64,000 bases of DNA. It comes from the human T2T-CHM13v2.0 reference genome, Homo sapiens. The stretch lies in assembly GCF_009914755.1 (NCBI RefSeq), contig NC_060931.1; one strand, 5' to 3'. Under the pieces are notes generated by a model. It was not told the origin of the DNA. It saw only the letters and a list, made by a program, of their open reading frames with translations, and did no database searches. The position numbers and the translations under genes are program-made. Shown here piece by piece: positions 7,421-8,941 of this stretch. Positions within the stretch are counted from its first letter, which is position 1. Every line of letters begins with the position of its first letter.

Positions 7421-7478
7421 CTAAAAAATTATCCAAAATACCAACATGGAGAGATTTTATTGCCAGAAAGATATTCTT

Positions 7479-7801
7479 TTTTTTTTTTTCTATTTTATTT
7501 TTATTCTTTTGGAGGCAGAGTCCCATTCTGTTGCTCAGGCTGGAGTGTAGTGGCATGATCACGGCTTACTGCATCCTTGATCTCCTGGGCTCAAGTGATC
7601 CTCCCACCTCAGCCTCCTGAGTAGCTGAGACCACAGGTATGCACCACCACACCAGGCTATTTTTTTTCTTTTCATTATTTTTTGTAGAGCTGGGGTCTCT
7701 CTATGTTGCCCAGGCTGATCTTGAACTCCTGGGCTCAAGCAATCCTTTCACTTTGGCCTCCTAAAGTGCTGGATTATGGGCATGAGCCACCGTGTCTGGC
7801 C
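7479..7801 (-). mobile_element. AluJ-like element forming the 3' end of the retrocopy
   Basis: Dimeric Alu, diverged and CpG-depleted; A-rich tail containing AATAAA. Confidence 0.85.
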
Positions 7802-7979
7802 TCTTGCTTCCAGGTGAGGAGCAGCACAGGTACTCCACTGAGAGTGTATTAGGCCAGAGCCCAAGCCTACTGAATGAGAATCCTTTTATGAGAAAATTAT
7901 GCCTTGGAGATTCTTATCAGTCTCTCTCAGGAAGTAGACATTTTCGTTCTCACAAACGCTGTTTTTAATAGAATTTAAA

Positions 7980-8092
7980 GGCTGAACGCAGTGGCCCATG
8001 CCTATAATCCCAGCACTTTGAGGCCCAGGCAGGAAGATCACTTGAGGTCAGGAATTCGAGATCAGTCTACGCAACACAGTGAGACTCCGCAT
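7980..8092 (+). mobile_element. Alu left-monomer fragment, antisense within the retrocopy
   Basis: gctgaacgcagtggcccatgcctataatcccagcacttt... ending abruptly at the HERV-W junction. Confidence 0.85.
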
Positions 8093-8102
8093 CACTTTGG
8101 AG

Positions 8103-8120
8103 GTCCCCTCGTGGTCGCCA
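8103..8120 (-). other. Retroviral primer-binding site TGGCGACCACGAGGGGAC
   Basis: 3 nt downstream of the LTR end, starts TGG, resembles the complement of a tRNA-Arg 3' end as seen in HERV-W/HERV-9. Confidence 0.8.
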
Positions 8121-8123
8121 AAA

Positions 8124-8670
8124 TGTTACCGGGGGTCCTTGTTCACAGCGCTCCCAAGATGGTGGTGAGCCACTTCTAAGATGGTGGCGGGTGGCTTCCA
8201 AGATGGTGGCAAGCCTTATGTTCTCTGACCTGGGATTCTTGGCCTCATGGATTCCAAGGAATGGAATCTTGAGCCATGCAGTGTTATAGCTCTATTAGAA
8301 GCTGTGGGTCACAGAAGAGAACAGTGGAACCCAGTGACTAGTGTTCAGCTCGATTAGGACGAACCCAGGCACTTAGCCCTGCAGGAACAATGGCAGCCTT
8401 CAGCACGATCGGGAGTGGCAATGGGAGTCTCGTTGGATCCGGAGCACAGCGGACACCCTGCCGGATCTGGAGGGATGGGAGTCAGTGGCGGGATGGGAGT
8501 CAGCGGCAGGTCTGCGACAGTGGCAAACAGCAGTGGTGGACAGCCAGCGAAAGCTCAGCTCTAGCCGTTAACAAACATGGACCAGAAGAGCGCAGTGCAA
8601 GATTTAATAGAGTGAAACAGAGTGAAAACAGAGCTCCCATACAAAGGGAGGGGACCCAAAGGGGGTTGCC
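8124..8670 (-). mobile_element. HERV-W LTR17 R-U5 (U3 absent)
   Basis: Minus strand starts ggcaaccccctttgggtcccctccc, contains ATTAAA and repeated ccaccatctt, and ends cccggtaaca. Confidence 0.88.
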
Positions 8671-8941
8671 CCAGAAAGATATTCTTAATATAACACTTCA
8701 GAAAGAATAAAAACTTTTCTATATTAAGGCCCGAAAATCAAAATGGAAGAGGAAGACACTTGTAAACAGATGGGAATATCAAACGATTATATATATATTA
8801 AACGAGAGAAACCACAAACAATTGGCACAGTTTTAAAAATATTTAGAAATATTGAAAGTGTAAATCCATATATTTAAGTTAAATTAGATAGCAGGTTCTG
8901 TGCTACTTAAATAACTTAACTGGTGAGAGAATAATCTGTTT

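What the first reader, a model, noticed from the sequence alone, without database searches (positions are those of the whole stretch)
7463..8686. Single TSD-bounded insertion: retrocopy of a HERV-W-driven chimeric mRNA
Seen: a perfect 16-bp direct repeat ccagaaagatattctt (7463-7478 and 8671-8686) brackets four pieces that a repeat annotator would list separately. On minus they read LTR17 R-U5 with no U3, PBS, antisense Alu monomer, about 180 nt unique sequence, sense AluJ, and poly(A). The target reads tt|aaga, close to the L1 endonuclease TT/AAAA site. Established: HERV-W RNAs are often retrocopied by L1, and such copies start in R. Inference: this is a fossil cDNA of an LTR-promoted virus-host fusion RNA expressed in germline or early embryo, moving host sequence into the ZNF cluster. 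Known HERV-W retrocopies are usually viral RNAs ending in U3-R; this one has no viral 3' end.
Basis: partly seen in the sequence, partly recalled or inferred. Interest (0 to 1): 0.88.

Follow-up and report, generated by a model that had tools for sequence, protein, structure and literature searches.

The report
Retrocopy of HERV-W-promoted lncRNA LINC02335
A 1.2-kb insertion on chromosome 7 is an intron-less copy, probably made by LINE-1, of a five-exon non-coding RNA from chromosome 13 that starts in an old retrovirus promoter, so it is an ordinary kind of event that preserves a snapshot of that RNA from roughly 12-27 million years ago.

Summary
An exact 16-bp repeat (7463-7478, 8671-8686; 2 hits, 0.01 expected) brackets a 1192-bp insert that reads on the minus strand.

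The insert maps in five colinear, same-strand blocks to chr13 inside RefSeq lncRNA LINC02335:
- Block 1 is R-U5, the primer-binding site and 10 nt of leader from the 5' LTR of a true provirus.
- Blocks 2-5 lie 8.4, 43.8, 9.1 and 6.2 kb further on.
- Every junction fits GT...AG on chr13.
- The copy ends in an A-run just after two AATAAA hexamers.

It starts where other U3-less HERV-W copies start, 1 nt from RefSeq's ERVW-1 start. A chrX paralogue shows the unfilled site. The target reads TT|AAGA.

It is therefore a single L1-type retrocopy of an LTR-initiated, spliced lncRNA. It carries no viral gene and no U3. The family is HERV-W. Divergence from the source suggests about 12-27 Myr.

Weak points:
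- Block 1 is no closer to chr13 than to other copies.
- The two chr13 LTRs share private states, which I attribute to gene conversion.
- Only 4 A's are untemplated.
- No primate orthologues could be examined.

The mechanism is known and the instance appears undescribed.

The parts
8671..8686 (-). Target-site duplication, copy at the 5' end of the insert (transcript orientation); preceded on that strand by TT (8687-8688)
   Evidence: Exact 16-mer repeat. TT|AAGA reading. Single copy at the chrX paralogous site.
8592..8670 (-). R region of a HERV-W-type LTR (approximate 3' bound); the first base, 8670, is a G
   Evidence: The copy starts at LTR position 247/248 of the chr13 5' LTR. 8 of 11 U3-less copies start at 248 by BLAST. 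10 of 11 have a G just upstream, and 13 of 17 U3-bearing copies have G at position 247. The U3-R ends of 3 short copies stop at position 325. RefSeq's ERVW-1 start is 1 nt from the equivalent of 8670.
8124..8591 (-). U5 region of the LTR, ending in ...CA
   Evidence: Aligns to both chr13 LTRs up to their last base. 86% identical to the ERVW-1 5' LTR over q6-581.
8093..8123 (-). TTT spacer (8121-8123), 18-nt primer-binding site (8103-8120) and 10 nt of pre-gag leader (8093-8102); end of exon 1 of the copied RNA
   Evidence: chr13 reads the same stretch and then GTGAGT; the PBS matches 17/18 the complement of the 3' end of tRNA-Arg TCG3-1 and CCG1-1, and at most 14/18 of tRNA-Trp.
7949..8092 (-). 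Exon 2 of the copied RNA: antisense Alu arm plus 30 nt
   Evidence: chr13:54279077-54279207, 124/131 aligned columns identical. chr13 has a 13-nt deletion relative to the copy and is flanked by ...tag| and |gtatgg. This is the best non-self match genome-wide among 40 scored of 2139 candidates.
7882..7948 (-). Exon 3 of the copied RNA (non-repeat, 67 nt)
   Evidence: chr13:54322978-54323044, 63/67 identical, flanked by ...acag| and |gtaagc. Apart from the window itself, chr13 is the only place matched.
7801..7881 (-). Exon 4 of the copied RNA (non-repeat, 81 nt)
   Evidence: chr13:54332172-54332252, 77/81 identical, flanked by ...gcag| and |gtaggt. The last exon base is G in the copy and C on chr13.
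7479..7800 (-). Exon 5 of the copied RNA: sense Alu with an A-rich tail holding two AATAAA hexamers, then an 11-A run (7479-7489, 4 A untemplated)
   Evidence: chr13:54338414-54338729, 304/316 identical, preceded by ...aatag|. chr13 has A7 followed by unrelated sequence. The best non-self match genome-wide is 96%, against 83% for the next (40 of 8631 candidates scored).
7463..7478 (-). Target-site duplication, copy at the 3' end of the insert

Best explanation
Window 7479-8670 (minus strand) is one processed retrocopy of a spliced, polyadenylated non-coding RNA from the chr13 gene now called LINC02335.

How the RNA was made:
- It started at the usual R start of the 5' LTR of a HERV-W provirus (chr13:54269836-54277947), about 29 nt downstream of a TATAAA.
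- It ran through R, U5, the primer-binding site and 10 nt of leader.
- It was spliced from the donor in the pre-gag leader, over the whole provirus, to an exonised antisense Alu 1.1 kb beyond the 3' LTR.
- It continued through two short unique exons to a terminal exon that is a sense Alu. The A-rich tail of that Alu supplies AATAAA.

How the copy was made: the LINE-1 machinery copied this RNA to its 5' end at a TT|AAGA nick in the flank of a VN1R pseudogene on chr7, producing the 16-bp duplication.

Shown: the colinear five-block map, the GT...AG junctions, the missing U3, the family-typical 5' end, the repeat and the unfilled paralogue.
Inferred: that L1 did it, that the 3' end is a true poly(A) site, and that the RNA was present in germline-lineage cells.

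The copy has no promoter part (U3) and no viral gene. I take it to be inert today.

Family: HERV-W. Age: roughly 12-27 Myr.
For: 1. Source map.
- Blocks q1-578, 579-722, 723-789, 790-870 and 871-1188 align in that order on the + strand of chr13 at 54270082-663, 54279077-207, 54322978-3044, 54332172-252 and 54338414-729.
- The two unique exons match nowhere else (3 matches, namely the window itself and the two chr13 pieces).
- Both Alu blocks have their best non-self match at these chr13 sites.

2. Splicing. On chr13 each block is bounded by ag| and |gt at positions that reproduce the copy's junctions.

3. True provirus at the source.
- Two LTRs of 797 and 799 nt, TG...CA, with a 4-bp ATAA duplication.
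- 246 nt of U3 that the copy lacks.
- TATAAA 24-29 nt before the start.
- RefSeq places the LINC02335 start inside this LTR.

4. 5' end.
- 8 of 11 U3-less copies among 29 loci start at the same LTR position.
- RefSeq's ERVW-1 start is 1 nt away in the homologous LTR.

5. Insertion marks.
- 16-bp repeat, 2 found against 0.01 expected.
- TT|AAGA target.
- The copy ends in an A-run after two AATAAA hexamers.
- On chrX the two flanks abut on a single copy of the 16-mer.

6. Family.
- The LTR is 86% identical to the ERVW-1 5' LTR.
- The chr13 leader is 89% identical over 1000 nt to the ERVW-1 locus.
- Hits L005 and L029 are loci that Grandi 2016 lists as HERV-W.
- The spacer and an R/W-type PBS are as published.

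7. Clock.
- Exons 2-5 differ at 27/595 sites and exon 1 at 51/576.
- 25 of those 51 are in CpG context.
- Non-CpG divergence is 5.1% against 3.5%, Fisher p = 0.23.
- The two lineages are balanced against 10 single outgroups.
Against: - Exon 1 is not specifically closest to the chr13 5' LTR. Five other places, one of them the provirus's own 3' LTR, are 90-92% identical, like the chr13 5' LTR itself. Exon 1 is assigned to chr13 through position, strand, PBS and leader, not by sequence.
- The two chr13 LTRs differ by only 32/797. At 8-13 sites (5-8 outside CpG) they share a state that neither the copy nor any of 10 outgroups has. Under a simple history the copy should carry those states. I explain this by LTR-LTR gene conversion after the copy was made, which is not shown.
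- Only 4 A's are untemplated. Priming on an internal A-rich stretch of a longer RNA is therefore not excluded, and RefSeq's gene runs 60 kb further.
- RefSeq's LINC02335 start is 70 nt upstream of the copy's start.
- I had no exon table for chr13 and no RNA data, so present-day use of exons 2-5 is unverified.
- The unfilled site is a paralogue (82% right flank, about 75% left flank), not an orthologue.
- Genome searches scored only the best candidates, and closed regions are not shown.
Confidence: 0.9

Rival explanations
1. Exons 2-5 come from chr13, but block 1 comes from another HERV-W locus. This could be an RNA joined in trans, or an earlier state of the chr13 element that was later overwritten by another copy.
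For: Block 1 is 90-92% identical to six places, including both chr13 LTRs, and none stands out. The chr13 LTR pair shares 8-13 private states that the copy lacks.
Against: The chr13 5' LTR lies upstream on the same strand, with PBS and leader matching up to a GTGAGT exactly where the copy switches to exon 2. With 780 first-look LTR candidates in 3.1 Gb, my arithmetic gives about 0.01 expected by chance in such a 70-kb same-strand interval. Non-CpG divergence of block 1 is not significantly higher than that of exons 2-5 (p = 0.23). Star-like similarity among copies of one burst is expected.
Confidence: 0.05
2. A template-switch chimera: the L1 reverse transcriptase jumped between separate RNAs (Alu, other RNAs, HERV-W RNA) during a single insertion.
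For: There is one TSD and one A-run around several repeat-derived pieces.
Against: All four junctions coincide with ag|...|gt boundaries of one colinear chr13 locus. Random switch points would not do this.
Confidence: 0.03
3. Several independent events: a truncated solo LTR, two Alu insertions and unrelated filler, with the 16-mer repeat arising by chance; or a DNA-level duplication from chr13 followed by deletions.
For: The public soft-mask lists the pieces separately.
Against: The 16-mer is expected 0.01 times in the window. Neither Alu has its own flanking repeat adjacent. The chrX paralogue lacks the whole 7479-8670 stretch. The four gaps relative to chr13 are exact GT...AG introns totalling 67.5 kb. 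A solo LTR would have U3 and a 4-6 bp duplication, and here U3 is absent.
Confidence: 0.01

Closest known systems
HERV-W processed pseudogenes made by LINE-1 (Pavlicek 2002 and Costas 2002 as cited in Grandi 2016; Grandi 2016 passages read)
   Same: - Starts in R. Published: nt 256 of the 780-nt LTR17 reference. Here: position 247/248 of a 797-nt copy.
- No U3 at the 5' end.
- TT/AAAA-like target.
- TSD at the upper edge of the published 5-15 bp range (16 bp here).
- A-run at the 3' end.
   Different: - There is no viral interior and no 3' U3-R.
- After 31 nt beyond the LTR the RNA continues in four host exons from 9-68 kb downstream of the provirus start.
- It would not be found by searches with the internal HERV17 sequence.
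Processed pseudogenes / retrocopies of cellular spliced RNAs, including lncRNAs
   Same: Intron-less copy on another chromosome, starting at the transcription start, ending at a poly(A) site, flanked by a TSD. The promoter is left behind.
   Different: The parent is a non-coding RNA whose first exon and promoter are retroviral, and two of its five exons are Alu-derived. A repeat annotator therefore sees only scattered repeats, and no pseudogene is annotated here.
LTR-initiated lncRNAs at HERV-W loci (LINC00383 at 13q21.33 and MIR548XHG at 21q21.1, in the Grandi 2016 table)
   Same: The parent gene LINC02335 likewise has its annotated start inside a HERV-W 5' LTR.
   Different: For LINC02335 I found no statement in print that it is HERV-W-initiated (6 papers, none on its structure judging by listing and abstract starts). 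Those papers' supplements were not seen.

Membership tests
L1-mediated processed retrocopy | Intron-less copy of a spliced parent RNA | tested here: met
   Five colinear blocks on chr13. Four gaps are bounded by gt...ag at the junction positions.
L1-mediated processed retrocopy | Target-site duplication of about 5-20 bp flanking the whole copy | tested here: met
   Exact 16-bp repeat, 2 found against 0.01 expected. Present once at the chrX paralogous site.
L1-mediated processed retrocopy | Poly(A) tail at the parent's polyadenylation site | tested here: inconclusive
   An 11-A run follows two AATAAA hexamers, but 7 of the A's are templated on chr13 and only 4 are extra. This is compatible with a shrunken tail or with internal priming.
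L1-mediated processed retrocopy | Endonuclease target resembling TT/AAAA | tested here: met
   TT|AAGA, 5 of 6 positions.
L1-mediated processed retrocopy | Parent promoter not copied; copy begins at the transcription start | tested here: met
   246 nt of U3 are absent. The start coincides with other U3-less copies and lies 1 nt from the ERVW-1 gene bound.
HERV-W (LTR17/HERV17) group | LTR homologous over its length to the LTR of the ERVW-1 provirus | tested here: met
   The copy is 86% identical over q6-581. The chr13 5' LTR is 88% identical over 1-826. The ERVW-1 position is from the public gene table.
HERV-W (LTR17/HERV17) group | PBS about 4 nt after the 5' LTR, of W or R type | tested here: met
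   A TTT spacer is followed by an 18-mer. It matches tRNA-Arg 17/18 and tRNA-Trp at most 14/18. The chr13 PBS matches both 16/18. Only 23 Arg/Trp representatives of the 521 annotated tRNA genes were compared.
HERV-W (LTR17/HERV17) group | Classification as LTR17 by a repeat library (RepeatMasker/Dfam/RepBase) | not testable with these tools
   No repeat library was on hand. The public table gives masked stretches without family names.
HERV-W (LTR17/HERV17) group | Internal HERV17 sequence (gag, pro-pol, env) | tested here: not met
   The window copy holds only 31 nt beyond the LTR. For the chr13 source only the first 1000 nt of pre-gag leader were compared (89% to the ERVW-1 locus). Its genes were not examined.
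Canonical HERV-W processed pseudogene (R-U5 ... U3-R-An) | 3' end is U3-R (ending near nt 326 of the LTR) followed by poly(A) | tested here: not met
   The 3' end is an Alu-derived host exon. There is no second LTR piece in the insert.
Solitary LTR | Complete U3-R-U5 flanked directly by a 4-6 bp duplication | tested here: not met
   U3 is absent, a PBS and leader are present, and the duplication is 16 bp and lies 645 bp beyond the LTR's end.

The most novel reading that the evidence does not exclude
The copy is a dated snapshot showing three things.

1. Soon after this HERV-W provirus arrived, its 5' LTR already drove a five-exon host-chimeric lncRNA in cells of the germ lineage.
2. The copy preserves the source LTR's R-U5 as it was before the two chr13 LTRs were homogenised by gene conversion.
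3. Four of 11 other U3-less copies stop at the same leader donor. Together with them, this copy suggests that L1 captured any abundant RNA beginning at a HERV-W R region, whatever followed.

If so, the unusual L1 mobilisation of this group would rest on LTR promoter activity, or on the first ~580 nt of the RNA, rather than on the viral interior or 3' end.
Probability: 0.2. Interest if true: 0.55.

Novelty: new member of a known kind. Interest (0 to 1): 0.38.

Why it matters
- It gives a source gene and a mechanism to four scattered repeat pieces that no annotation links. RefSeq has no feature here.
- It shows that LINC02335 is a HERV-W-LTR-initiated RNA whose splice pattern, including two Alu-derived exons, is at least roughly 12-27 Myr old.
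- A dated cDNA fossil of a lncRNA is rare, direct evidence for the antiquity of an LTR promoter and of Alu exonisation.
- It gives an outside reference for detecting LTR-LTR gene conversion in the source provirus. That is a warning against dating this provirus by LTR divergence alone.
- It adds no new mechanism.

Tried and rejected
- Cap-derived extra G at the first base (8670). Rejected as a claim: 13 of 17 U3-bearing copies have G at that LTR position, and 10 of 11 U3-less copies have a G there. The G is most simply templated, and chr13 has since changed to A.
- Transcription from the 3' LTR, which is slightly closer (40/546 against 51/576 mismatches). Rejected because the copy carries the spacer, PBS and leader that follow only the 5' LTR.
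- Faster decay of the copy as the cause of the high block-1 divergence. Not supported: copy-only changes number 15-22, against 21-26 on the chr13 5' lineage, across 10 outgroups. CpG context explains 25 of the 51 mismatches.
- Clustering of the sites shared by both chr13 LTRs. 4-5 fall in the first 110 nt and the rest are spread out, so there is no clear conversion tract.
- Rfam scan of 7000-9300: 0 matches at gathering score.
- ORFs: 7 of at least 50 aa, the longest 106 aa on the strand opposite to the transcript. Not pursued.
- Searching the short left flank alone found only the window itself. The chrX site was found through the right flank and direct alignment. The chr16 paralogue does not reach the target site.

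Literature:
- 'LINC02335' returned 6 papers: PTSD association studies and reviews, and an iPSC expression table. None concerns its structure, judging by listing and abstract starts. One passage was read.
- Searches for HERV-W processed pseudogenes, for retrocopied chimeric or lncRNA transcripts, and for LTR17 with lncRNA and promoter (listings only) showed no description of this copy.
- The 2017 review has 0 occurrences of 'chimeric', 'read-through' or 'fusion transcript'.
- The main text of Grandi 2016 has 0 occurrences of '7q11'. Its locus list and the orthologue tables of Grandi 2018 are in supplements that are closed and that I did not open. They may list the chr13 provirus, its age and its primate distribution.
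Full report
**1. Observation**

- The sequence at 7300-8850 and the repeat scan (family D10) show the exact 16-mer CCAGAAAGATATTCTT at 7463-7478 and 8671-8686.
- Allowing one mismatch, it occurs twice in the 64-kb window, against 0.01 expected from 100 dinucleotide-preserving shuffles. None of the shuffles reached two.
- Between the repeats lie 1192 bp (7479-8670). I number the insert q1-q1192 on the minus strand, with q1 = 8670.

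**2. Where the insert comes from**

A search of the whole reference with the non-repeat middle (7791-7980) gave 3 matches: the window itself and two pieces on chr13 that lie 9 kb apart, 96% and 94% identical.

A search with the LTR piece gave 40 scored matches out of 780 first-look candidates. Among the best were two on chr13, 7.3 kb apart, about 50 kb upstream of those pieces and on the same strand.

I fetched chr13:54265001-54355000 and aligned the insert to it. This gave a colinear map on the + strand:

| Block | Insert | chr13 |
|---|---|---|
| 1 | q1-578 | 54270082-54270663 |
| 2 | q579-722 | 54279077-54279207 |
| 3 | q723-789 | 54322978-54323044 |
| 4 | q790-870 | 54332172-54332252 |
| 5 | q871-1188 | 54338414-54338729 |

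- On chr13 each block is preceded by ag (blocks 2-5) and followed by gt (blocks 1-4), at positions that reproduce the copy's junctions. After block 1, chr13 reads GTGAGT.
- Block 5 ends on chr13 in two AATAAA hexamers, ATAG and A7, followed by unrelated sequence. The copy has 11 A there, so 4 are untemplated.
- The two Alu-derived blocks also have their best non-self match genome-wide at these chr13 places. Block 5 is 96% identical, against 83% for the next hit. Block 2 matches at full length with 178 bits, against 125 bits for a partial match. Only 40 of 8631 and 40 of 2139 candidates were scored.
- The public gene table places lncRNA LINC02335 at chr13:54270012-54398967 (+).

**3. The source element**

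- The two chr13 LTR matches are the LTRs of one provirus. The 5' LTR is 54269836-54270632 and the 3' LTR is 54277149-54277947. Both run TG...CA, a polypurine run precedes the 3' LTR, and ATAA lies on both sides.
- The copy starts at LTR position 247, so 246 nt of U3 are missing. A TATAAA lies 24-29 nt upstream of that point on chr13.
- RefSeq's LINC02335 start falls at LTR position 177, 70 nt further upstream.
- Block 1 contains the LTR's last 547 nt, TTT, an 18-nt primer-binding site and 10 nt of leader. It therefore comes from a 5' LTR, not a 3' LTR.

**4. Family**

- One LTR match (chr7:93718694-93719255, minus strand, 86% over q6-581) lies at the 5' end of the RefSeq gene ERVW-1 (93709695-93719261, minus).
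- By ungapped extension, q1 corresponds to 93719260, which is 1 nt from that gene's start.
- The chr13 5' LTR is 88% identical to that LTR over positions 1-826. The 1000 nt following block 1 on chr13 are 89% identical at full length to the ERVW-1 locus.
- Two further hits (at LINC00383 and at MIR548XHG) are loci that a table in Grandi 2016 lists as HERV-W (passage).
- The PBS in the window matches the complement of the 3' end (last 15 nt plus CCA) of tRNA-Arg TCG3-1 and CCG1-1 at 17/18, and of tRNA-Trp at 14/18 at most. The chr13 PBS matches both kinds at 16/18. I compared 23 Arg/Trp isodecoder representatives out of 33 such genes and 521 annotated tRNA genes.
- Grandi 2016 reports W and R as the common, overlapping PBS types of this group, with the PBS about 4 nt after the LTR (passages).
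- I could not run a repeat annotator, so the label LTR17 rests on these comparisons.

**5. The 5' end**

- Of the 29 other LTR loci fetched, 11 lack U3. By BLAST, 8 of them begin at LTR position 248 and the other three at 211, 244 and 250.
- 10 of these 11 have a G just upstream, and 13 of 17 U3-bearing copies have G at position 247; 3 have A and 1 was not aligned.
- The copy's first base (G, where chr13 now has A) is thus family-typical. I do not claim an untemplated cap G.
- Grandi 2016 gives nt 256 of the 780-nt reference as the start of processed pseudogenes. This agrees, given length differences between copies.
- Of the 11 U3-less copies, 7 continue into the unspliced leader. Four stop at the same point as the window's block 1.

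**6. The integration site**

- On the transcript strand the target reads tatt|aagaat, i.e. TT|AAGA.
- The right flank (8671-8985) has an 82% paralogue on chrX that begins exactly at the 16-mer, and a 77% paralogue on chr16 that starts 70 nt further in.
- I aligned the two flanks separately to the chrX locus. 7400-7478 and 8671-8990 abut on one copy of the 16-mer (two differences), with nothing corresponding to 7479-8670.
- The three places are flanks of VN1R35P, VN1R110P and VN1R69P. This is therefore an old gene-family paralogue that shows the pre-insertion arrangement. It is not an orthologous empty site.

**7. Age**

Copy against source:

| Region | Mismatches | Notes |
|---|---|---|
| Block 1 | 51/576 | 25 in CpG context; non-CpG 26/512 = 5.1% |
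| Block 2 | 7/131 | chr13 also has a 13-nt deletion |
| Block 3 | 4/67 | |
| Block 4 | 4/81 | |
| Block 5 | 12/316 | |
| Blocks 2-5 pooled | 27/595 = 4.5% | non-CpG 3.5% |

The non-CpG values of block 1 and blocks 2-5 do not differ significantly (p = 0.23).

I used the rate of Grandi 2016 (0.13% per site per Myr, divergence halved; passages). The estimates are:

| Sites used | Mismatches | Age (Myr) | Range (Myr) |
|---|---|---|---|
| Pooled non-CpG | 46/1087 | 16.8 | 11.6-21.0 |
| Blocks 2-5, all sites | 27/595 | 18.0 | 10.9-24.0 |
| All sites | 78/1171 | 26.8 | 19.9-31.3 |

- I therefore put the event at roughly 12-27 Myr.
- This lies within the published period of ERV-W locus formation, from 43 to under 20 Myr ago (Grandi 2018 passages).
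- No primate genome was available to test this.

**8. An unresolved point**

- The chr13 LTRs differ from each other by only 32/797 (4.0%; 15.9 Myr by the same formula). That is less than the difference between the copy and either LTR.
- I made four-way comparisons with ten single outgroup copies, one at a time. Over 525-545 columns they gave:

| Category | Sites |
|---|---|
| Copy-only changes | 15-22 |
| 5'-LTR-only changes | 11-15 |
| 3'-LTR-only changes | 5-7 |
| Both chr13 LTRs agree against copy and outgroup | 8-13 (5-8 outside CpG) |

- The copy's lineage and the chr13 5' lineage are balanced, so the copy has not decayed abnormally fast.
- The shared private states are best explained by LTR-LTR gene conversion on chr13 after the copy was made. 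That would also make the LTR-LTR age an underestimate.
- The sites are not clearly clustered, so conversion remains an inference.
- The rival reading is that block 1 stems from another HERV-W copy. It is disfavoured by position, strand, PBS, leader and the exact donor, but sequence alone does not exclude it. Five other places, one of them the provirus's own 3' LTR, are as similar to block 1 (90-92%).

**9. What it is not**

- There is no viral gene in the insert, only 31 nt beyond the LTR.
- There is no U3, so the promoter part of the LTR is absent.
- There was no Rfam match and only short ORFs.
- No gene, pseudogene or functional element is annotated at 7463-8686. The public soft-mask lists four separate stretches of at least 100 bp.
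- I take the copy to be inert. That is an inference.

**10. Comparison and novelty**

- The mechanism is the known L1-type retrocopying. It meets the published marks of HERV-W processed pseudogenes at the 5' end and at the target. It fails their 3' mark (U3-R), because the RNA was a host-chimeric, spliced lncRNA.
- My searches showed no description of this copy, of LINC02335 as HERV-W-initiated, or of retrocopied chimeric HERV-W-LTR transcripts.
- The supplements of the two catalogue papers are closed and were not seen.
- I rate it a new member of a known kind, of moderate interest. It is a clean, datable cDNA fossil of an LTR-driven lncRNA with two Alu-derived exons.

Noticed in passing
L005 (chr13:68442616-68446196) and L029 (chr21:17110847-17114386): Two other lncRNA genes, LINC00383 and MIR548XHG, have a HERV-W LTR copy at or next to their annotated 5' ends. 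A table in Grandi 2016 already lists both as HERV-W loci overlapping exon 1.
   Followed up: partly
L007, L008, L025, L033: Four of the 11 U3-less HERV-W copies have R-U5-leader ending at the same point as the window's block 1, followed about 255-270 nt later by a U3-R piece. These are short forms that look like copies of spliced viral RNAs. Their junctions were not examined because they may lie near env.
   Followed up: no
L034/L035, chr13:54269836-54270632 and 54277149-54277947: The two LTRs of the source provirus share 8-13 states that are absent from the retrocopy and from 10 other copies. This suggests LTR-LTR gene conversion, so LTR divergence (4.0%) probably under-dates this provirus.
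   Followed up: partly
L034, chr13:54270012 against 54270082: RefSeq's start of LINC02335 lies 70 nt upstream of the retrocopy's start, inside U3 and upstream of the TATAAA. This may be a different start site or an imprecise model.
   Followed up: no
L035 chr13:54279077-54279207; L040 chr13:54332252: Relative to the retrocopy, present-day chr13 has a 13-nt deletion in exon 2. The last base of exon 4, next to the donor, is C where the copy has G. The copy may therefore keep older states of the parent's exons.
   Followed up: no
window 7400-7478 and 8671-8990; L044 (chrX), L045 (chr16): The insertion site belongs to a three-member paralogue set beside vomeronasal receptor pseudogenes VN1R35P, VN1R110P and VN1R69P, 77-82% identical.
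   Followed up: partly
window 8124-8670: The public soft-mask table lists only two stretches of about 100 bp each (8278-8380 and 8568-8672) within the 547-bp LTR piece. The table omits masked stretches under 100 bases, so how much of the piece is actually masked is unknown.
   Followed up: no
window 8390-8710 (+): An ATG-started 106-aa ORF lies on the strand opposite to the copied RNA and crosses the insert boundary and the TSD. It was not searched and is presumed to be chance.
   Followed up: no
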